Shown in pieces: positions 3,088-58,547 of a DNA stretch of 64,000 nt. Positions within the stretch are counted from its first letter, which is position 1, and the number at the start of each line of letters is the position of its first letter. Source of the stretch: Verrucomicrobiota bacterium (GTDB taxonomy: Bacteria > Verrucomicrobiota > Verrucomicrobiia > Limisphaerales > SIBE01); assembly GCA_016871535.1 (NCBI GenBank), contig VHCZ01000001.1, positions 22,733-86,732 on the forward strand. Reading direction: 5' to 3'. The position numbers and the translations under genes are program-made. Under the pieces are notes generated by a model. The model was not told where the DNA came from. It worked only from the letters and a program-made list of their open reading frames with translations, and made no database searches.

Positions 3088-3684
3088 TTACCTCCGGTTT
3101 GGAGATTCCAGGGTGGACGTGGTTTCGTCGTAAAGCCAGGCGCGGGCGTAGGTCCAGTGGCGTTTGACGGTTGTCACGGAGATGCCGAGCAATGCGGCGG
3201 CTTCTTCGTTGGTCAGTCCAGCGAAAAACCGGAGTTTAACCAGGCGCGCTTTCTCCGGGTCTTCCGCTTCGAGTTTTTCGAGAGCTTCGTTGACCAACAG
3301 TACCTCGTCGGGCGCGGTCTCTGCCGCCACCGTCACGCTTTCAAGATCCAGTGGCCTTTGACCGCCGCCGCGACGCAATCGAGCTTTCGCGCGAGCGCGT
3401 TCGATTAAGATTCGCCGCATGGCTTCCGCCGCTGCGCCAAAGAAATGTCCGCGGCTGTTCCACTGGTGCCCGGCTTCATTTCCGACCAGCCGCAGCCAGG
3501 CCTCATGGACAAGCGCGGTGGGCTGAAGGGTTTGGCCGGGCGGTTCGCTGGCCATCTTATGCGCCGCAAGTTTGCGGAGCTCTTCATAGACCAGGGGAAG
3601 GAGTTGATCGGCGGCTTGAGCATGGCCCTGCTGGATCGCGTCTAAAATCTGGGTGACTTCGCTCATCGCTGGTTTCGACCGCAC
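3088..3684 (-). CDS. ECF-type RNA polymerase sigma factor (PVC/Acidobacteria Sigma70_ECF type)
   Basis: Blocks ADQLLPLVYEELRKLA, TLQPTALVHEAWLRL and WNSRGHFFGAAAEAMRRILIERAR, plus the C-terminal HTH LTNEEAAALLGISVTTVKRHW. ATG at 3666 (MSEVTQIL) is the likelier start. It lies directly upstream of the kinase on the same strand. Confidence 0.9.
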   Translation of the reverse strand: MRSKPAMSEVTQILDAIQQGHAQAADQLLPLVYEELRKLAAHKMASEPPGQTLQPTALVHEAWLRLVGNEAGHQWNSRGHFFGAAAEAMRRILIERARAKARLRRGGGQRPLDLESVTVAAETAPDEVLLVNEALEKLEAEDPEKARLVKLRFFAGLTNEEAAALLGISVTTVKRHWTYARAWLYDETTSTLESPNRR

Positions 3685-12830: not shown

Positions 12831-15002
12831 ATGGAAGCACCGAAAACACCGAATACATCGGAAGCAAAACTGCACTTTTTGGATTACTGGCGGATCATCC
12901 GCATCCGCAAGACCGTGATCCTCGCCGTGTTCCTTCTGGTCGTCCTGACCACCACGGCCGTCACCTTCATCCTGCCCGAGTCCTTCTCGAGCACGGTGCG
13001 AATCGAGGTTAACAAAGACACGACGGATATCGCCCCGCTCCTTCTGGGTGTCCCGACGCAGAACACCTTCGATCCCTACTTCATCCAGACAGAGTTCGAG
13101 AAGATCAAGTCCAAGACTGTGCTCTACCAGGTCATCACGAACTTGGCACTGACGAATGTCATTTCCAAAGCGCTCAATACAGAGGGTATCCTGAGGGTCT
13201 CAGAGGTGTACCCATTTTTGCTCCGGCAGATTGATGTCCGTCAGTCGCGCAATACGAGCCTCATTGAGATTCGGGTTTATGACGAGGACAAGAACTTGGC
13301 GGCGGCTATTGCGAACGAGATCGCGGCCGTGTATCGGAAGACACGCGAGGAAAGATCCGGGAGAGCGTCCGAGGAGAGCATCGCGGAACTGGCAAAGCAG
13401 CTCGCCCTTCAAGAAGTCGCCCTCACCAATGCCCAGAACACGATGGATGATCTTCGCAAACAGCTCGGAGTCGCTGACATCGACGCCGGAGGCGGACTCC
13501 TGACCGTGGAACCAGAAATCGTCCGCATGGTCTCGCGCGATCGCGTTGGAGCGCAGTCTCTGTATGCTCAATTCAAAACGCTCTTCGACGAACTCAGTTC
13601 GTTGCCTAAAGAAGAATTGCGCCGGGTCATCCCGACGGCTTCACCGGATCCACAGTTGTCTGATCTGCTGAGCAAACATGCGCAAGCCGAGGTCGAATAC
13701 GCGTCCATCTTCAAGGAGTTGGGAGACAAACACTCTCGGGTCGTTTCACTGAACGCCATCATAACCAACCTGAACGGGCAGATTGACGCTCGATGCCAGG
13801 GCATTCTCAAAGGCCTGGCAACTCAAGCGGCCGTGCATGCCGCCCGGATTGAGGCTTTGGATAAGGAAGAACTCCGTGCGAGGACAAAAGATGCGGATCA
13901 AATGGAGAAGTATCGGCCGTACTTCCAGGCCAAGCGCAACGTGGACACTCAGCAGCGCATCTACGAAACGATCAAACTCCGCATTCTGCAAGAGACGGTC
14001 GATAAGGCTCTGCCCAAGAAGTCGATCGTGCAAGTGATCGACAAGGCCGAGGCGAGCTTGCGTCCCGTCCGCCCCAACATACCGCTCAATATTGCTCTCG
14101 GCGTGATTGTCGGATTGCTCATGGGCTTTGGCCTCGCCTTCTTCATCGAATATCTGGACACGAGCGTGAAGACGATCGACGACGTGGAGCGCGCCGTCCA
14201 GGCGCCCGTGCTCGGCGTGATCCCGCAAAACGTCGGCGCCTTGATCGAAGAAGGGCCGGAAAGCCCGCACGCGGAGGCCTATCGTGTCCTTCGCACCAAT
14301 ATCATGTTCGCCCGCAAAGAGTCGAACTGGAACTGTTTGACCGTCGTCAGCGGCGGCGCTGGCGAAGGAAAGTCCACGACTATTTTCAACCTGGCGACCG
14401 TCTTCGCGCAGAACGGCCAGCGCGTGCTGATGGTCGATTCCGACTTGCGCCGTCCGAGCCTCCACAAGCTGTTGAACGTCTCCAATTCGGCCGGCCTGAC
14501 CAACTTCCTGCTCAACCAGGTCGGCCTGGAGCAAGTCATCCAGACGACCAGTTTGCCGACCTTGCACTTCCTGCCGAGCGGCAAACTGCCGAGCAGTTCG
14601 CTGGGCGTGCTCAACTCGCCGCAGATGAAGGAGTTCATCACGGCCGTCAAAGCGCGCTATGACTTTGTGTTCTTCGATTCGCCCCCGATCATGGGCGTAA
14701 GCGACGCTTCGATCCTGGCCAGCGTCGTCGATATGTCGCTGCTCGTGATCCAATACCGCAAATACCCGCAAGCCATGACCATCCGCGCCAAGCAAATGGT
14801 GGAAAAGGTTGGCGGAAACCTCCTCGGTGTCGTGCTGAACAACATCAACATCTCCCAGGATTCCTACTACTACTACTACAGCGGCTATTACTACGATTAT
14901 TACTCGAAGCACGACGACAGCGAGTCCTCGCCCAAGAAAAACGGCGAAGCCAAGACGCCGGCTTCAGATCGGGGTGGTCTCGAGATCAAACAAAAATATT
15001 AA
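12831..15002 (+). CDS. Polysaccharide co-polymerase / tyrosine autokinase (Wzc/GumC-like)
   Basis: Wzz-like N-domain with TM (ILAVFLLVVLTTTAVTFIL), long coiled-coil region and a second TM. Cytoplasmic P-loop ATPase (GGAGEGKSTT, DSDLRRPSLHK, FDSPPI) and a C-terminal Tyr cluster YYYYYSGYYYDYY. Confidence 0.9.
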   Translation: MEAPKTPNTSEAKLHFLDYWRIIRIRKTVILAVFLLVVLTTTAVTFILPESFSSTVRIEVNKDTTDIAPLLLGVPTQNTFDPYFIQTEFEKIKSKTVLYQVITNLALTNVISKALNTEGILRVSEVYPFLLRQIDVRQSRNTSLIEIRVYDEDKNLAAAIANEIAAVYRKTREERSGRASEESIAELAKQLALQEVALTNAQNTMDDLRKQLGVADIDAGGGLLTVEPEIVRMVSRDRVGAQSLYAQFKTLFDELSSLPKEELRRVIPTASPDPQLSDLLSKHAQAEVEYASIFKELGDKHSRVVSLNAIITNLNGQIDARCQGILKGLATQAAVHAARIEALDKEELRARTKDADQMEKYRPYFQAKRNVDTQQRIYETIKLRILQETVDKALPKKSIVQVIDKAEASLRPVRPNIPLNIALGVIVGLLMGFGLAFFIEYLDTSVKTIDDVERAVQAPVLGVIPQNVGALIEEGPESPHAEAYRVLRTNIMFARKESNWNCLTVVSGGAGEGKSTTIFNLATVFAQNGQRVLMVDSDLRRPSLHKLLNVSNSAGLTNFLLNQVGLEQVIQTTSLPTLHFLPSGKLPSSSLGVLNSPQMKEFITAVKARYDFVFFDSPPIMGVSDASILASVVDMSLLVIQYRKYPQAMTIRAKQMVEKVGGNLLGVVLNNINISQDSYYYYYSGYYYDYYSKHDDSESSPKKNGEAKTPASDRGGLEIKQKY

Positions 15003-16040: not shown

Positions 16041-16970
16041 TCACTTCGTTCCGCCGGCCAGAATGGTCTGGAAGTGCGGCGGCTGCTCTTCCCGGGCGAC
16101 GACGCTGATCTCGATTCTTTTGAATCCGGCGGCTTCCAGCCATCGCTGCAGGTCGCTTTCGCGAAATCCCAACCAGCGGTCCCCATACAGATCGCGGGCT
16201 TGCTCGAAAGTGTGTTGAAGAAGATCCAGGACCATGAGCTGTCCACCCGGAACGAGAAGCGTGTGCGCGCTTTGAATGGCGCGTTCCGGGTTCGCGGCGT
16301 GATGCAGCGCCTGGCTCAGAATCACGAGATCCACACTCTGAGGATCGATCGGCGGCGTTTCCAAATCTCCCAGGCGGAATTCGAGATTCTTGAGACCATT
16401 CTTCTTCGCCTTGCTCGCCCCAAAGGCGATGATCTTCTCCGAATTATCGACCGCGATCACTTTCTTGGCGCGACGCGCCAAAAGTTCACTCAACAAACCT
16501 TCACCGGCGCCCAGGTCCGCGATCACCAGCGGTGGAAGCACCCGCAAAAGCAGTTGGCCAAACGCCTGCCAGGATCGGCCCGGACCGTAACTTCGGTCGA
16601 AGCGCCCCGCCACCTGGTTGAAGAAGAGTTGCGCCTGCTCGGTGCGGCGGTTCAGAATGCGTTTGAGGTTGATCTGATCCGCCGCGTACTCGTCGATTTC
16701 TTTGGCGCCGCGAACCGCCAGTTGGATGAATTCGCGCGCCATCCCATTGGCCGCGGCGCTCAGTTTGTAAAAAGTCCGCTTCCCGTCGCGCCGTGATTGG
16801 AGCAGCCCCGCTTCTTGCAGCAAACCCAGGTGCGTGGAAATCCGCGATTGCCCCATGCGCGTGATCTCCTGGAGTTCGTTGACCGACAACTCGTCGCGCT
16901 CCAGCAGAGCCATGATGCGGAGCCGCGTCGGGTCCGCCAGCGCGCGCAGGGATTTAAGGACGCGCGACAT
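16041..16970 (-). CDS. ArsR-family wHTH fused to a SAM-methyltransferase-like domain (SahR-like regulator)
   Basis: ArsR HTH (LADPTRLRIMALLERDELSVNELQEITRMGQSRISTHLGLLQEAGLL) plus a class I MTase fold (VIADLGAGEGLLSELLA...VIAVDNS). It is adjacent to metK-ahcY. Confidence 0.8.
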   Translation of the reverse strand: MSRVLKSLRALADPTRLRIMALLERDELSVNELQEITRMGQSRISTHLGLLQEAGLLQSRRDGKRTFYKLSAAANGMAREFIQLAVRGAKEIDEYAADQINLKRILNRRTEQAQLFFNQVAGRFDRSYGPGRSWQAFGQLLLRVLPPLVIADLGAGEGLLSELLARRAKKVIAVDNSEKIIAFGASKAKKNGLKNLEFRLGDLETPPIDPQSVDLVILSQALHHAANPERAIQSAHTLLVPGGQLMVLDLLQHTFEQARDLYGDRWLGFRESDLQRWLEAAGFKRIEISVVAREEQPPHFQTILAGGTK

Positions 16971-17529
16971 GTTTTCGTCTCCGCTTCGAGATTGAGGTTC
17001 GCCCTTGGCGCACTTGCCTAACCATCTGCCGGAACAATGTCGTCAAAGCTTTTCGACGACCAGAAGAAACCGGCAGAGTGGCTATGCGGTCTGCCAAAAT
17101 CATCGGCTTGATCAGTCGGCTGCGAAGCAAGGCTTCTAGATAAGAGCGATCCTTTTCACGTCCCGCAGCCAGTTTGCTCGCTGCCAGATCGTGCAGTTCA
17201 AGACACCATCCCGTGACACCACCTGTGCGTTTCGTCCGGAAAGGAATTAGCCGTTCCGTCCATCCGTCCGGGAGCGAGGCCAGTTCAGGTGTGACACAAT
17301 CGACGAAGAAGCCATTCTGTCGTGAGAAATCGGACCGAGCGCCAAGTTGGGTCACAAGAAGCGGCAATGCTTGGGGATTGGCGCGCGGATATAAGTCAAC
17401 CTCTTGCGATCTCAGACAAACTCCAGGCGGGCGTGCCACCATGCCCAGAATGCACTGACTGCCAAAAACGATAGAATCCCACTGATGACCATGAGTCCAG
17501 GGTGGTTTGAGTCGCGCGGTCTTTTTCAT
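16954..17529 (-). CDS. Hypothetical protein, minimal nucleotidyltransferase-like
   Basis: GS...D.D motif (IVFGSQCILG...SQEVDLYP) and a C-terminal block HDLAASKLAAGREKDRSYLEALL. It overlaps the downstream ArsR/MTase start by 17 nt. Confidence 0.5.
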   Translation of the reverse strand: MKKTARLKPPWTHGHQWDSIVFGSQCILGMVARPPGVCLRSQEVDLYPRANPQALPLLVTQLGARSDFSRQNGFFVDCVTPELASLPDGWTERLIPFRTKRTGGVTGWCLELHDLAASKLAAGREKDRSYLEALLRSRLIKPMILADRIATLPVSSGRRKALTTLFRQMVRQVRQGRTSISKRRRKHVARP

Positions 17530-17573
17530 ACCGTGATCTTAGCGCAGCTTGATTGCTGGGTCTCAACCCCTCA

Positions 17574-17846
17574 GAGCGTGTCCGAAAATTGCGCGGGGTC
17601 CTGCGGCGAGGGATTTTGGCTGTGGCCAAGGCGGCGAGGTCCGAGCATCCCCAACGCGGGCTGTAAGGACCGAGCCAACGCAGGCCACGGACAAAAGACC
17701 CGCCGCCCGGAGGGTTTTCGCGCCAAAGGCCGCCTGGCTTCGTTGCTCCTCAGTCGAAGATCCAGGGAGGATATTCTCCTTCGTCGCGCCTCGCCATCCG
17801 GCCTTTGGCGCGAAAACAGGACCCCGCGGAATTTTCGGACACGCTC
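17574..17846. mobile_element. MITE-A copy 1 (273 bp, non-autonomous)
   Basis: 30-bp terminal inverted repeats GAGCGTGTCCGAAAATT(g/c)CGCGGGGTCCTG. Direct TCA flanks at 17571-17573 and 17847-17849. No transposase-like ORF. 272/273 identical to the inverted copy at 38739-39011. Confidence 0.9.
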
Positions 17847-17855
17847 TCAAAGATT

Positions 17856-17898
17856 TTGACACTTGAGGGTTGACGAAATACAAAATTAAAATATCTTC
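17856..17898 (+). promoter_or_regulatory. Candidate metK promoter region
   Basis: Either TTGACA (17856-17861), 17 nt, TACAAA, or TTGACG (17870-17875), 16 nt, TATCTT. An AT-rich leader precedes metK. The region starts 10 nt from the MITE-A end. Confidence 0.3.
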
Positions 17899-17946
17899 CT
17901 ATCCTGATACGTCAATATGTATCTCTTAAAATCACCTCGAATCTGA

Positions 17947-19125
17947 ATGAGCAAAAACTACATCTTCTCCTCCGAGTCCGTCGGCGAAGGCCATCCCGAC
18001 AAGGTCTGCGATACGATCTCTGATGCCGTCCTGGATGCTTGCCTCGCGCAGGACAAATTCAGCCGCGTCGCTTGCGAGTGCTACGCCAAGAGCAACCTCG
18101 TCATCGTCGGCGGCGAGATCACGACCAAAGCCAGGCTGGACTACAACGCCATCGCCCGCCAGGCCATTCGCGAAATCGGCTACACGCACGACGACGACGT
18201 GTTCCACGCGGATCGGGTGTTGATCATGAACGCGATCACGCAACAAAGTCCGGACATCGCGCAAGGAGTGGATGCTCGTTCGGCCGAAGGCAAGGAGACT
18301 GCCGAGCAAGGGGCTGGAGACCAGGGATTGATGTTCGGCTACGCCACCAATGAGACTCCGGAATTGATGCCCGCGCCCATCATGTACGCCCATCAACTTG
18401 GCCGCGAACTCAATCGCATCCGGAAGAACGGAAAGGTGAAATGGCTGCGCCCCGATTCCAAGACGCAAGTCTCCGTTCAGTACGTGGACGACCAGCCTGT
18501 CCAAATCACCAACGTGGTTGTCTCCACTCAGCACTCCGCCGATGTCAAGCACCGCACCATCAAAGAATTTGTCATTGAGGAGGTCATCAGAAAGGTTCTG
18601 CCAAAGCATCTGCTCCGCAAAACCACTAAGTTTCTCATCAATCCCACCGGCCGATTTGTCGTGGGCGGGCCGCAAGGCGACACCGGTTTGACCGGACGCA
18701 AGATCATCGTCGATTCCTACGGCGGGATGGGCCGTCACGGCGGCGGCGCCTTCTCGGGCAAGGATCCCTCCAAAGTGGACCGCAGCGCGGCTTACATGGG
18801 ACGCTACGTGGCAAAGAACATCGTGGCTTCCGGCCTCGCGACCAGCGCAGAAATCCAGTTTGCTTACGCCATCGGCCATCCCGATCCCGTCAGCGTTTGC
18901 GTGAACACGTTTGGCACGGGCCTGGTTCCGGATGATTTGATCGAGAAAGCCGTGTGCGAAGTGTTCAGTTTCAAACCGGCGCACATCATCCGGCAGTTGG
19001 ACTTGTTGCGCCCGATCTATTCGCGAACCACCAACTACGGCCACTTTGGCAAAGTCGATGACCTCGAAAGCATTTCCTGGGAACGCACAGACAAAGCCGC
19101 GGCCCTGAAACGCGCCGTGAAATGA
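17947..19125 (+). CDS. metK: S-adenosylmethionine synthetase
   Basis: [10 protein letters not shown] and [19 protein letters not shown]; full-length MetK. Confidence 0.97.
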
Positions 19126-19200: not shown

Positions 19201-20697
19201 ATGCCCTCGATCAAACTCCCTCCCTCGCGCAAGTCTAAAACCGCCAAGGCCGCCGCGAAAGTCAGCGGCAACGGAAAAGGCAACGGCTCGCCCAAACAAG
19301 ATTTCTACGTCAAAGACCTTTCGCTCGCGGACCTGGGCCGCCGCGAAATCGAAGTCGCCGAGCAGGAAATGCCCGGCCTCATGGCCATCCGCCGCAAATA
19401 CGGCCCGCAGAAACCGCTTCTGGGCGTTCGCGTGTCCGGCTCGCTGCACATGACCATCGAGACCGCTGTTCTCATCGAAACCCTCGTCGAACTGGGCGCG
19501 TCCGTTCGTTGGGCAAGCTGCAACATTTTTTCGACCCAGGACCACGCCGCCGCGGCCATCGCTAAAGCCGGGATTCCAGTCTTTGCGTTCAAAGGCGAAT
19601 CGCTGGAGGAATACTGGCGGTTCACGCTCGACGCGCTCACGCATCCCGGCGGCAAAGGCCCGCAATTGATCGTCGATGACGGCGGCGACGCCACCCTGTT
19701 GCTCCACAAGGGCCACGAGATGGAGCAGGGCGACAACTGGGTCAACACGCCGAGCGACAGCCACGAAGTCGCTGTGGTCAAGGACCTCCTGAAAAAGTGC
19801 GCGAAAGAACGCCCGGGCTGGTTCACTCAGGCCGTCAACGAGTGGGAAGGCGTTTCCGAAGAAACGACCACCGGTGTGCATCGCCTCTACCAGATGCTCG
19901 AAGCGGGAAAACTTCTCGTGCCCGCCATCAACGTCAACGATTCCGTCACCAAGTCCAAGTTCGACAATCTTTACGGCTGTCGTGAATCTCTCGCTGACGG
20001 ACTCAAGCGCGCCCTCGGCGTGATGATTGCCGGCAAAACCGCGTGCGTTTGCGGTTACGGCGACGTCGGCAAAGGCTCGGCGCACAGTTTGCGCGGTTTC
20101 GGCGCGCGCGTCATCGTCACGGAGATCGACCCGATCAATGCTCTTCAAGCGGCGATGGAAGGCTTCAAAGTCACGACCATCGAAGACACCCTTGGCGAAG
20201 CCGACATCTACGTCACGACCACCGGCAACTGCGACGTCATCACGGTGGACCACATCCTCAAAATGAAGGACCAGGCGATCGTCTGTAACATCGGCCACTT
20301 CGACAACGAGATTCAGGTGGAACGCCTGAACAACGCCAAAGGCGTCACCAAGGTGAACATCAAGCCGCAGGTGGACCGCTACGACTTGCCCGGCGGCAAC
20401 AGCATTTACTTGCTGGCCGAAGGCCGCCTCGTGAACCTGGGTTGTGCCGAAGGCCATCCCAGCTTCGTCATGAGCAACAGCTTCACCAACCAATGCCTGG
20501 CGCAGCTCGATCTCTGGTCAAACAAGGACACCTACCAGATCGGCGTCTATCGGTTGCCCAAGAAGCTCGACGAAGAAGTCGCCCGGTTGCACCTGGAAAA
20601 AATTGGCGTCAAGCTCACGAAGCTCACGAAGAAACAAGCCGGCTACCTCGGCGTCCCGGTGGATGGGCCTTACAAACCAGACCATTACCGGTACTGA
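19201..20697 (+). CDS. ahcY: Adenosylhomocysteinase
   Basis: Full-length AhcY with the NAD-binding motif [15 protein letters not shown] and the C-terminal YKPDHYRY. Confidence 0.97.
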
Positions 20698-21551: not shown

Positions 21552-21903
21552 GTGTTGCGATTTTCCAAAGCCCACAATAATTTCGGCGCCGAAGCGGCAT
21601 ACTGATCAGACCGTGGGAATAGAATACATTTTGCCAGGAGGGATTTTGGCCAGCCGCGAGGAGCGCGCGAAGCGGTGTATCCCTGCGATCCACAACGAGC
21701 GAGCGACGAAGCGGCGGGCCAAAAGACCCCTCGCCCTGCGGGTTGCGCCGCATTTGGGCTCTGGCTTCGTTGCTCCTCAGTCGAAGATCCACCAGGGATA
21801 TTCTCCTTCGTCGCGCCTGAGCCCAAATGCGACGCAACAAAGTGTATTCTATCCCACGGTCTGATCAGTAAATGCCGCGCTCCGACGTATTGCGAAGCAA
21901 CAC
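21552..21903. mobile_element. MITE-B (core-related element, termini unresolved)
   Basis: Inverted repeats ACTGATCAGACCGTGGGAATAGAATAC (from 21601) and GTATTCTATCCCACGGTCTGATCAGT (to 21869). Weaker pairing extends out to GTGTTGC (21552) / GCAACAC (21903). It contains the MITE-A 57-nt core at 21761-21817 (53/57 by eye). Confidence 0.6.
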
Positions 21904-38380: not shown

Positions 38381-39646
38381 CTATTCGCGCTTTCCATGTT
38401 CGCCTGCTACATGGGCAAAAGCGTAGAAGTGGTTCTCCGTCCGCACGTAGAGAGTGTCCTCCACGATGGCGGGCGTGGCCAGGATCGGCTCGCCGAAGTT
38501 GTTTCGGGCCAGCACCTCCAGCGATTCGCCGGCGCGGTAAATCACCACCACGCCCGGCTGCGACGCCACACAGATTTTTCCATTCGCGGCCACGGGCGAG
38601 GCATAGTAATCCCCAAGGGCGCCGAGGCTTTCCTCCTGATAGGCGGCCTGACCGGTCTTCGCGTCAAAGCAAGAAACCAGCCCGCCGTTTTTCACCAGGT
38701 AAACCCGGCCTTCGTAGAACAGCGGCGTGGGGACGTAAGAGCGTGTCCGAAAATTCCGCGGGGTCCTGTTTTCGCGCCAAAGGCCGGATGGCGAGGCGCA
38801 ACGAAGGAGAATATCCTCCCTGGATCTTCGACTGAGGAGCAACGAAGCCAGGCGGCCTTTGGCGCGAAAACCCTCCGGGCGGCGGGTCTTTTGTCCGTGG
38901 CCTGCGTTGGCTCGGTCCTTACAGCCCGCGTTGGGGATGCTCGGACCTCGCCGCCTTGGCCACAGCCAAAATCCCTCGCCGCAGGACCCCGCGCAATTTT
39001 CGGACACGCTCTAAGGCAGCCCGCGCTTTTGTTTCCAGACCACGTGTGAGGCCGTGACTTCGCCGCAGCCATCCGGTCGCACGGCCAGAAGCGCATTCTC
39101 GGACCGGTCAAAAATGTTCGCGATGGATTCCCATTCCGCCTGCGTGATCCATCCATCTTTGTTGGCATCGACATAAAGGAAATGCTGTTTGGCCGGACCG
39201 GACGGCGCTTCGTCGCGGGTGAGTTGGCCGTCGTGGTTTTGATCGCCTCGCTCCAGCAACGCGGAAAATGGCGGCAGCTTGCTCACGCCCGAACCGTGCG
39301 TCCAGCCGCCCGCGAAGATCAAACCGTCTCCTGCCACGGGCGTCGCCACGATTTCATTCGGCAGGCCTCGAACGCGCCATTGTTCGGCGCCATCGCAGAG
39401 CCGATGCGCCGCGAGCCGGAGAGTGCTGGCCAGGATGATGAATTCCGGTCTCTCTCGCGGCCACAGCAACGGCGTGGCGAACCCGCGTCGGTACTCGGGA
39501 CGATCCAGCTTCCAGATCGTCTCGCCCGTTTGAGCATCCACTGCCAGCAGATAGGAGCCGACATCCTGATCGCAGGCGAGACGCCGCCAGACTGCACGGT
39601 TTGGAAATCGCGTCGCTCGCGATTGCGGAGATGAACAACATCCCAT
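38381..39646 (-). pseudogene. PQQ-like beta-propeller protein with EF-hand pair, split by MITE-A and 5'-truncated
   Basis: Upstream half: SYLLAVDAQTGETIWK, EF-hand loops GDQNHDGQLTRDE and DANKDGWITQAEW, ending ...VVWKQKRGLP. Downstream half starts YVPTPLFYEGRVYLVKNGGLVSCFDAKTGQ... The 273-bp MITE sits exactly between them. The N-terminus and signal peptide are missing. Confidence 0.8.
38739..39011. mobile_element. MITE-A copy 2 (273 bp, inverted relative to copy 1)
   Basis: Same 30-bp terminal inverted repeats. Direct TAA flanks at 38736-38738 and 39012-39014. One mismatch to copy 1 (38800 vs 17785). Confidence 0.92.
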
Positions 39647-58277: not shown

Positions 58278-58547
58278 GGGTCTGTGCAAAAATAAATTCC
58301 GGTTTTGCCGGAGGTGATTTCGCTTTCTGGCGAGGCACGACGAAGGAGCATAGCCAGGGCTCCGCGACTGAGGAGAAACGAAGCCAGAAAGCGAAATCGC
58401 CCCAGCCCTCCGGGGCGGGGCGGCGCCTGGCCGGCTGCGGCGTTGCTCGTCGGTCACAGCCCCAAAACGGGGATGCTCCCTCCTCGCGCCTTGCATCCGG
58501 CCAGGCGGCGCTCCCGCCAAAACCGGAAGTTATTTTTGCACAGACCC
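58278..58547. mobile_element. MITE-C (270 bp)
   Basis: About 33-bp terminal inverted repeats GGGTCTGTGCAAAAATAA(a/c)TTCCGGTTTTG(c/g)CGG. Direct TAA flanks at 58275-58277 and 58548-58550. It contains the shared core in reverse orientation (58329-58385). Confidence 0.85.

What the first reader, a model, noticed from the sequence alone, without database searches (positions are those of the whole stretch)
17571..17849. Second, inverted MITE-A copy differing at one base, with a TCA duplication, between the SahR-like operon and the metK promoter
Base-by-base comparison of 17574-17846 with the reverse complement of 38739-39011 shows 272/273 identity. The only difference is C at 17785 versus T (A at 38800 on the plus strand). 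The flanks are TCA/TCA here and TAA/TAA at the other site, so the duplications fit TNA. Near-identity argues for very recent mobilisation. A 3-bp TNA duplication is, as I recall, the hallmark of the IS1031 group of IS5-family elements and of their PIF/Harbinger relatives. This copy ends 10 nt from a TTGACA box upstream of metK, so it could alter methyl-cycle gene regulation.
Basis: partly seen in the sequence, partly recalled or inferred. Interest (0 to 1): 0.65.

Follow-up and report, generated by a model that had tools for sequence, protein, structure and literature searches.

The report
Abundant MITE copy upstream of metK
A 273-base non-coding "jumping" DNA element, one of about 150 near-identical copies in an uncultured lake Verrucomicrobium, sits between the divergent promoters of the metK and sahR operons without touching either; it is an ordinary kind of element from an undescribed family.

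Summary
17574-17846 equals the reverse complement of 38739-39011 at 272/273 bases. It has 30-nt terminal inverted repeats (29/30) and TCA/TCA flanks; the other copy has TTA/TTA.

- A capped metagenome scan gave at least 60 distinct insertion sites, 120 of 122 flanked by T-N-A.
- Flanks agree at 34 of 41 complete copies. Uninterrupted paralogous repeats show the single-TGA empty site.
- The target is C|TNA|G, with about 13-fold preference for a central A/T.
- Contig depth ratios in six samples suggest about 150 copies per genome. Median pairwise identity is 99.3%.
- The metK copy equals the family consensus. The one difference in the other copy is a sub-lineage marker, not a private mutation.

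The 3-bp TNA duplication and GAGC.TGTC termini fit the IS1031 group of the IS5 family.

The conserved metK promoter is TTGACG-16-TATCTT (17870-17897), overlapped by a likely SahR operator. The element lies between two intact divergent promoters, so it is probably neutral. No RNA data exist.

Verdict: real, a new member of a known kind, modest interest.

The parts
17571..17573 (+). Left copy of the 3-bp target-site duplication (TCA)
   Evidence: Family-wide T-N-A flanks.
17574..17603 (+). Left terminal inverted repeat, GAGCGTGTCCGAAAATTGCGCGGGGTCCTG
   Evidence: 29/30 match to the right TIR. The outer ~16 nt alone also bound a mini-variant (table 5c).
17604..17707 (+). Internal module 1: a long hairpin with a conserved base (GAGGGATTTTGGC ... 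CAAAAGACCC). It is the only internal module in the 156-bp relative L008.
   Evidence: Fold. Alignment with MITE-B. L008 sequence.
17715..17816 (+). Internal module 2: inner inverted repeat (GGGTTTTCGCGCCAAAGGCCG / CGGCCTTTGGCGCGAAAAC) around the 57-nt core (17734-17790) that other MITE families also carry
   Evidence: (family D2).
17785..17785 (+). C/T sub-lineage marker. This copy has C, the consensus and majority state; the copy at 38739-39011 has T.
   Evidence: T in 11 of 39 copies; the C type is about 80% of depth in run X3.
17817..17846 (+). Right terminal inverted repeat
17847..17849 (+). Right copy of the target-site duplication (TCA)
38736..39014 (-). Second, inverted copy with TTA/TTA duplication. 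It splits a beta-propeller ORF, and the junction creates a TAG stop.
17870..17897 (+). Conserved metK promoter candidate, TTGACG-16 nt-TATCTT. Its -35 lies 23 nt from the element's end.
   Evidence: The same architecture, TTGACT-16-TATCTT, occurs in relative L110.
17891..17920 (+). 30-nt block conserved with L110, containing TATCT-N8-TGATA (17892-17909). It is the likely SahR operator and overlaps the -10.
   Evidence: SahR binds a 20-bp palindrome and regulates metK, ahcY and sahR itself (PMC4239095). Assigning this block as the operator is inference.
17536..17566 (-). Candidate leaderless promoter of the DUF6036-sahR operon, TTGAGA-19 nt-TAAGAT. Its -35 lies 7 nt from the element (TSD included).
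   Evidence: Read by eye; the 19-nt spacer is outside the scanner's range. The L110 counterpart, TTGAGC-18-TAAAAT, was found by the tool and aligns to it.
17856..17861 (+). It is present but has no -10 partner and is not conserved in L110.

Best explanation
17574-17846 is one copy of a young, high-copy, non-autonomous DNA transposon (a MITE). Shown: it is 273 bp long, with 30-nt terminal inverted repeats around two long hairpin modules. It inserts at C|TNA|G targets and duplicates the central three bases. Inferred: a DDE transposase supplied in trans recognises the terminal ~16-30 nt, cuts the element out or copies it, and makes a 3-nt staggered cut at the target. The most likely enzyme is an IS5-family member of the IS1031 type. 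This copy landed in the short gap between two back-to-back divergent promoters, those of metK-ahcY and of DUF6036-sahR, and left both core promoters and the likely SahR operator intact. It is fixed in every assembly of this population. The most likely consequence is none or slight: the two promoters are simply 276 bp further apart.
For: Structure: TIR 29/30 and TSD TCA/TCA. As a single strand it folds at -102 kcal/mol, z = -11.3.

Mobility: at least 60 distinct left flanks and at least 60 distinct right flanks among the first 100 metagenome stretches, with 120 of 122 flanks T-N-A. The two flanks agree at 34 of 41 complete sites, and the exceptions share a flank with another site, as chimeric assemblies would.

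Empty sites: L104 reads gcgac TGA [element] TGA ggagaaacg, whereas at least 7 uninterrupted copies of the host repeat, and the window at about 58370, carry a single TGA.

Target: C at position -1 in 88/114 sites. The central base is A/T in 78% of sites although TAA/TTA are 3.7-fold rarer than TCA/TGA in this DNA.

Copy number: exact interior unitig depth over unique-flank depth is 160, 150, 152 and 157 in four samples that differ 7-fold in abundance, and about 140-180 in two more.

Youth: median pairwise identity is 99.3%, and 10 of 39 copies, this one included, equal the consensus.

Selection pattern: 16 of 34 sites lie in an ORF of at least 200 aa, against 85% of random TNA positions. Five sites sit exactly on a stop codon.

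IS1031 link: that group prefers TNA and makes an exclusive 3-bp repeat, and the ISLrh IR is GAACCTGTCT... compared with GAGCGTGTCC (MITE-A) and GAGCCTGTCT (MITE-D).

Insertion in this lineage: the syntenic relative L110 has a 165-nt intergenic region with no element. The window has 141 nt without the element and 417 nt with it.

Promoters spared.
Against: No transposase or IS-sized element with matching ends was found. There were no TIR pairs, no TNA-bounded inverted repeats 600-3000 bp apart and no bounded repeat of 500 bp or more in 0.88 Mb of fetched DNA. Nothing turned up in the viral contigs or plasmids, and no contig leads from the TIR into a different interior.

No exact empty site exists for this particular copy. 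All 11 contigs with the identical MetK carry the element. No contig skips it. The two relatives are either too diverged at the junction (L110) or lack the DUF6036 side altogether (X19).

The copy number rests on assembler word depths and assumes that all copies belong to one organism.

Neutrality is inferred, since no RNA data exist.
Confidence: 0.8

Rival explanations
1. The element is a MITE, but a transposase outside the IS5 family moves it. Candidates are an IS630/Tc1-mariner-type enzyme, whose CTAG target resembles CTNAG, or an enzyme not yet recognised as a transposase.
For: No IS5-type partner was found. Earlier notes of this scan report many TNA-duplicating MITE families in several phyla whose transposase was never found, one of them with IS630-like ends (unchecked leads). 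The target C|TNA|G is CTAG with one base inserted.
Against: IS630-type elements duplicate TA (from general knowledge), not three bases with a free middle base. An exclusive 3-bp TNA repeat is the stated hallmark of the IS1031 group (PMC12016507). The first 10 nt of the TIRs resemble an IS1031-group IR (GA.C.TGTC).
Confidence: 0.15
2. The insertion has been co-opted as a regulatory element. By separating the divergent metK and DUF6036-sahR promoters by 276 bp of hairpin-forming DNA, it changes SahR autoregulation or metK expression, and it is fixed for that reason.
For: It is present in every assembly carrying this MetK and no empty allele appears in the contigs. It lies 7 nt and 23 nt from the two -35 hexamers. 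In relatives, sahR and metK share one short control region of about 117-143 nt, and sahR is normally autoregulated (PMC4239095).
Against: No outward promoter is predicted in the element. Both core promoters and the operator block are untouched. The DUF6036 cassette had already separated sahR from the operator in L110, which has no MITE. Fixation in a single lake population is expected by drift. About half of all copies sit in similar intergenic positions. There are no expression data.
Confidence: 0.12
3. The conserved internal modules are the functional unit, and the TIRs are only a vehicle. The modules in question are the 57-nt core and the GGGATTTTGGC...CAAAAGACCC hairpin base. They could encode a structured RNA or a protein-binding site.
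For: The core is 93% identical between MITE-A and MITE-B, which have unrelated termini, and recognisable in MITE-C. The fold is very stable. Other windows' notes report compensatory changes in the stems (unchecked).
Against: No Rfam family matches; the best hit has E = 0.08 and is far below its gathering score. Copies occur in both orientations, inside genes and inside other repeats. Derivatives lacking the core exist: the 167-bp variant, the 156-bp L008 relative and the mini-variant. No transcripts are available.
Confidence: 0.1

Closest known systems
MITEs derived from or mobilised by IS5-family insertion sequences of the IS1031 group
   Same: Exclusive 3-bp direct repeat at 5'-TNA-3' targets. 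Termini start GAG/GAA-C-TGTC, like the ISLrh IR GAACCTGTCTAGTATCT (PMC12016507). Small, non-coding, with TIRs, multi-copy.
   Different: No cognate IS or transposase was found. The 30-nt TIRs are longer than the 17-bp IR of ISLrh. The interior is not a deleted transposase gene; it is two hairpin modules that are also found in MITE families with other termini.
Tourist MITEs / PIF-Harbinger transposons of eukaryotes (relatives of the IS5 family)
   Same: 3-bp TWA-type duplication within a palindromic C-TWA-G target (the PIF/Tourist target details are from my own knowledge). High copy number and near-identical copies from a recent burst. Insertion near genes.
   Different: Those are eukaryotic. 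This is a bacterial element, N can also be C or G here (22% of sites), and no Myb-like accessory protein or transposase is in evidence.
Correia/NEMIS, ERIC and RUP: classic high-copy bacterial MITEs
   Same: 100-300 bp, TIRs, strongly folded, roughly 100 or more copies per genome, mostly intergenic and often next to promoters (review PMC10969869).
   Different: They have other targets and duplications (from my own knowledge: TA for Correia and RUP). Correia carries its own promoters and an IHF site; no promoter is predicted in this element.

Membership tests
Prokaryotic MITE | Short (under ~500 bp) with no room for a transposase gene | tested here: met
   273 bp. ORFs crossing it are overlapping read-throughs in several frames of GC-rich DNA.
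Prokaryotic MITE | Terminal inverted repeats | tested here: met
   30 nt, 29/30 match. 0 matches in 100 shuffles.
Prokaryotic MITE | Target-site duplication, shown by comparison with empty sites | tested here: met
   34 of 41 complete sites have concordant 3-bp flanks. Paralogous empty sites carry a single TGA. For this copy only a diverged orthologous region without the element is available.
Prokaryotic MITE | Many copies in unrelated genomic contexts | tested here: met
   At least 60 distinct sites in a capped scan. Depth ratio of about 150.
Prokaryotic MITE | An autonomous IS with the same termini in the same or a related genome | tested here: inconclusive
   None in 0.88 Mb of fetched contigs, the viral contigs or the plasmids.
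IS5 family, IS1031 group (as source or mobiliser) | Exclusive 3-bp direct repeat at TNA | tested here: met
   120 of 122 flanks are T-N-A. Definition from PMC12016507.
IS5 family, IS1031 group (as source or mobiliser) | Terminal IRs like those of group members | tested here: inconclusive
   Compared with one published IR only: ISLrh GAACCTGTCT versus GAGCGTGTCC (7/10) and MITE-D GAGCCTGTCT (9/10). ISfinder was not available.
IS5 family, IS1031 group (as source or mobiliser) | DDE transposase of the IS5 type that acts on these ends | not testable with these tools
   The host genome was inaccessible and no candidate was found in the fetched DNA. Proof needs a transposition assay.
IS630/Tc1-mariner-derived MITE | TA dinucleotide duplication | tested here: not met
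   The duplication is 3 bp with a variable middle base: A 46, T 43, C 12, G 13.
REP/REPIN (RAYT-mobilised) | Short REP hairpins, no TIR-bounded unit and no target duplication | tested here: not met
   30-nt TIRs and regular 3-bp duplications.
Known structured RNA family (Rfam 15) | Match at or above a family's gathering score | tested here: not met
   Only a MIR5534 hit at 23 bits against a gathering score of 79, E = 0.08.

The most novel reading that the evidence does not exclude
MITE-A, MITE-B and MITE-C carry the same internal hairpin modules: the 57-nt core and the GGGATTTTGGC/CAAAAGACCC stem base. These sit between unrelated termini, and MITE-B may even have a different duplication (TA-flanked). 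If so, the modules are a selected cargo that has been captured repeatedly by the ends of different transposons. The cargo could be a host-factor or transposase-loading site, or a small structured RNA. That would make this a modular, end-swapping MITE system in freshwater Verrucomicrobia, moved by an enzyme not yet identified.
Probability: 0.15. Interest if true: 0.6.

Novelty: new member of a known kind. Interest (0 to 1): 0.3.

Why it matters
It documents an undescribed, recently amplified MITE family of about 150 copies (roughly 40 kb) in an uncultured lake Verrucomicrobium. The target (C|TNA|G), the anatomy and the selection footprint are all well defined. The family explains why assemblies of this organism break; four of the six MetK contig places shown end inside the element. 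It also bears on annotation of the methyl-cycle control region. The real metK promoter and SahR operator lie downstream of the element and are intact, so the insertion should not be read as a regulatory change without expression data. The wider point is that TNA-duplicating MITEs with no identifiable transposase keep turning up across phyla. That open question is more interesting than this copy.

Tried and rejected
- **Genome-contig scan with the 20-nt terminus:** the host genome is not in the collection. The three hits were one chance match (L007), a 156-bp relative (L008) and one extra site (L009).
- **Autonomous partner:** degenerate TIR pairs, any TNA-bounded 16-nt inverted repeats 600-3000 bp apart, contigs leaving the TIR into another interior, viral contigs (chance hits only), plasmids (no match) and bounded repeats of 500 bp or more all found nothing.
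- **Exact empty site at metK:** the identical-MetK contigs are all occupied. No contig skips the element.
- **Relative in run X19:** homology stops at the element's right edge, but its upstream sequence is the sahR start, not the window's left flank. It is a different gene arrangement and not an empty site.
- **DUF6036 homologues as synteny anchors:** the nearest is only 67% identical.
- **Insertion polymorphism at two gene-internal copies:** none seen in contigs. Contigs drop rare variants, so this is weak evidence.
- **RNA data:** no runs.
- **Rfam:** nothing significant.
- **The X19 loose end as the terminus of another MITE family:** rejected.
- **The 276-bp (3 x 92) length as evidence of ORF restoration at copy 2:** rejected as uninformative, because removing 276 bp keeps the reading frame automatically.

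Full report
**Observation.** 17574-17846 and the reverse complement of 38739-39011 are both 273 nt and differ at one position, C17785 versus T. The repeat finder recovered the pair independently (I1). The element has 30-nt terminal inverted repeats that match at 29 of 30 positions. It is flanked by TCA/TCA here and TTA/TTA at the other site. The 25-nt terminus occurs four times in the window, the four ends of the two copies, and never in 100 shuffles. The gene context is as stated. To the left, on the minus strand, lie a DUF6036 gene (16954-17529) and, overlapping it by 17 nt, a 309-aa ArsR-HTH plus methyltransferase-fold protein of SahR architecture (16041-16970). To the right lie metK (17947-19125) and ahcY (19201-20697).

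**Tools.** The census was therefore made on public collections. The species-representative genome collection does not contain the host genome.

**Census.**
All came from one freshwater-lake series, Ga01941xx.
- After removing duplicates by flanking sequence there are at least 60 different left-end flanks and at least 60 different right-end flanks.
- The three bases next to the element are TAA (47), TTA (45), TCA (14) and TGA (14). Only two ends are exceptions: a chance coding match and a degraded copy.
- Among 41 non-redundant complete copies, 34 have the same triplet on both sides. One of the rest is cut off by the locus. The others share one flank with a different site, as expected when an assembler crosses a repeat into the wrong locus.

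**Empty sites.** Real empty sites come from nesting. MITE-A has inserted into a copy of another repeat (MITE-C), giving gcgac-TGA-[MITE-A]-TGA-ggagaaacg in L104. At least seven uninterrupted MITE-C copies, and the window's own copy near 58370, read gcgac-TGA-ggagaaacg. The 3-bp duplication is therefore demonstrated for the family.

**Target.** The base just outside the duplication is C at 88 of 114 sites, so the target is C|TNA|G. The central base is A or T at 78% of sites, although TAA and TTA are 3.7-fold rarer than TCA and TGA in this DNA. That is roughly a 13-fold preference per available site. The metK copy used the less-favoured TCA.

**Copy number and age.**
- In four samples where the organism's unique flanks have word depths of 13.2, 85.7, 65.8 and 11.7, the exact-match interior unitig of the element has depths of 2114, 12887, 10022 and 1833. 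The ratios are 160, 150, 152 and 157. Two more samples give about 140-180.
- A constant ratio over a 7-fold abundance range argues that the copies belong to this organism, at about 150 per genome. This rests on assembler depths and is an estimate.
- The 39 complete 273-274-nt copies have a median pairwise identity of 99.3%. Ten equal the consensus, and the metK copy is one of them.
- The T at the position of 17785 is shared by 11 of 39 copies and by about 20% of depth in one run. The one difference between the two window copies is therefore a sub-lineage marker and not a private mutation.
- The review PMC10969869 gives 1-44 copies for typical prokaryotic MITEs and 30-711 for ERIC. About 150 is high but within the known range.

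**Where copies sit.** Only 16 of 34 reconstructable sites fall in any stop-to-stop ORF of at least 200 aa, against 85% of random TNA positions in the same contigs. Most of those 16 are within about 100 nt of an ORF end. At five sites the duplicated triplet is the ORF's own stop codon, which the duplication preserves. Only four or five copies are deep inside a gene, and the window's second copy is one of them. The metK copy is thus a typical, tolerated, intergenic insertion.

**Anatomy.** As a single strand the element folds into a TIR stem plus two long hairpins (-102 kcal/mol, z = -11.3).
- Module 1 (17604-17707) has a conserved base, GAGGGATTTTGGC...CAAAAGACCC.
- Module 2 (17715-17816) is an inner inverted repeat around a 57-nt core.
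- Both the module-1 stem base and the core recur in MITE-B at 21600-21870, which has unrelated termini. The core is 93% identical there. It also recurs in diverged form in MITE-C.
- Derivatives exist: a 167-bp deletion form, 274-bp forms, and a 156-bp relative in another Verrucomicrobiota MAG with only module 1. There is also a mini-form in which about 16 nt of each TIR flank a 27-nt palindrome. The outer ~16 nt are probably the essential part.

**Which transposase.** PMC12016507 states that IS1031-group members of the IS5 family prefer 5'-TNA-3' and make an exclusive 3-bp repeat. It gives the IR of ISLrh as GAACCTGTCTAGTATCT. MITE-A starts GAGCGTGTCC and the window's MITE-D starts GAGCCTGTCT. 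Duplication, target and termini therefore fit an IS1031-type enzyme. The C|TWA|G preference recalls the related eukaryotic PIF/Tourist system; that comparison is from my own knowledge. No transposase was found. The following gave nothing:
- degenerate TIR pairs;
- any TNA-bounded inverted repeats 600-3000 bp apart;
- bounded repeats of 500 bp or more;
- contigs running from the TIR into another interior;
- viral contigs and plasmids.

The searched DNA is only 0.88 Mb and is biased towards MITE neighbourhoods, and ISs tend to sit at contig ends. The absence is therefore weak evidence. Membership in "IS1031-derived" remains an inference.

**The metK site.**
- All 11 contigs that encode the identical MetK carry the element at the same place. 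Four of the six places shown end inside it. No contig skips it. It is fixed in this population.
- A syntenic relative, L110 (a Verrucomicrobia MAG; MetK 91% identical), has ahcY-metK facing a 125-aa ORF, DUF6036 and sahR. Its intergenic region is 165 nt with no element. The window has 141 nt without the element and 417 nt with it. The two align at both ends, but the junction itself is too diverged to show the TCA.
- A closer relative in a subsurface run (X19) matches 17849-17946 with only three differences. Its upstream sequence is the sahR ribosome-binding site and start codon. There, sahR abuts the metK control region with neither DUF6036 nor the MITE. Another contig has sahR, 143 nt, then metK.
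- An exact empty site for this copy was therefore not obtained. What supports insertion in this lineage is the absence of the element from every relative examined, together with the matching intergenic length in L110.

**Regulation.**
- The promoter conserved between window and L110 is TTGAC[G/T]-16-TATCTT (window 17870-17897). A 30-nt conserved block containing TATCT-N8-TGATA overlaps it (17891-17920).
- SahR is known to bind a 20-bp palindrome and to control metK, ahcY and itself (PMC4239095). This block is the likely operator, by inference.
- On the other side, L110 has TTGAGC-18-TAAAAT ending 5 nt before the start codon. The window has the aligned TTGAGA-19-TAAGAT (17566-17536, minus strand; read by eye).
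- The element thus lies between two divergent -35 hexamers, 7 nt from one and 23 nt from the other, and disrupts neither. No promoter-like site is predicted inside it.
- No RNA runs hold this locus.
- The best reading is a neutral or nearly neutral spacer insertion. A regulatory role is possible but has no support.

**Verdict.** The finding is real and correctly classified as a MITE with TNA duplications. The family appears undescribed: no Rfam or plasmid match, and no mention of Verrucomicrobia in the MITE review or in the MITE papers that the searches listed. The kind of element is ordinary. The most interesting loose ends are the missing transposase and the hairpin modules shared by MITE families with different ends.

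Noticed in passing
window 16954-17573; L110 3667-4567: The window's 191-aa DUF6036 ORF matches DUF6036 only from residue 16 onward (66% identity to P0003). Its first ~17 residues (MKKTARLKPPWTHGHQW) resemble the start of a separate 125-aa ORF that precedes DUF6036 in L110 (MRKASRAKRPRIYSHQW; pairwise E = 6e-5). The partner gene seems to have been mostly deleted here, fusing its start to DUF6036.
   Followed up: partly
window 16941-17529 versus run X19 and the P0126 contig: Close relatives have sahR directly facing metK across about 117-143 nt. The DUF6036 cassette is therefore an insertion between a regulator and its target. It is present in the window and in L110 but absent from X19 and from the P0126 contig.
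   Followed up: partly
L104 3339-3611; L063 234; L074 2342; L015, L053, L102; L037 1671; L062 4801: MITE-A is often nested in other repeat families or abuts them. It lies inside MITE-C; exactly on the TNA next to the ends of MITE-C and of a family ending GTGGTCCGTTTCGTAAATACGC; inside a CAGCC-TGA-AGGCTG palindrome; and next to a MITE-D-like end. This fits several families sharing one target type.
   Followed up: partly
runs X2, X3, X5, X6 (table 5c): A mini-element has only about 16 nt of each MITE-A terminus around the 27-nt palindrome GTGGGGCAGACAAGATGTCTGCCCCAC. Its depth is about half to one times single-copy depth.
   Followed up: no
runs X1, X3, X4 (table 5c): There is a junction ...CGCTC-TAA-GAGCG... 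in which a MITE end is followed by another MITE start sharing one TAA, at single-copy depth. Two abutting family members are the likely explanation, not an excised circle.
   Followed up: no
window 21590-21885; L010 about 13290-13340: MITE-B and a mini-palindrome with the same ends (TACTGATCAGACCGTGGGA...) are flanked by TA on both sides. If TA is the duplication, MITE-B is moved by a different transposase type yet carries the same internal modules as MITE-A.
   Followed up: no
L009 (VFZW01000650.1), bases 1-123: A 2.2-kb contig binned into an 'Acidobacteria' MAG from the same lake series begins inside an exact MITE-A copy. It is probably a mis-binned Verrucomicrobia contig.
   Followed up: no
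L008 (CAYZKY010000094.1), 1904-2059: A 156-bp relative in another Verrucomicrobiota MAG has identical outer 20-nt termini but only hairpin module 1. Its flanks, TAA and TTG, do not match, so it is likely an older, decayed insertion.
   Followed up: no
L002 about 3200-3300; L003 1-150: Two metagenome contigs at the metK site differ inside the element. L002 lacks about 32 nt between the modules, and L003 switches to unrelated sequence at GGATATTCTCC inside the core. These are probably assembly artefacts at a repeat, but they could be real variants.
   Followed up: no
L022, L036, L062, L074, L079 insertion sites: At five of 34 sites the duplicated triplet is the stop codon (TAA) of a long ORF. 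The gene keeps its stop and the element starts immediately after it.
   Followed up: partly
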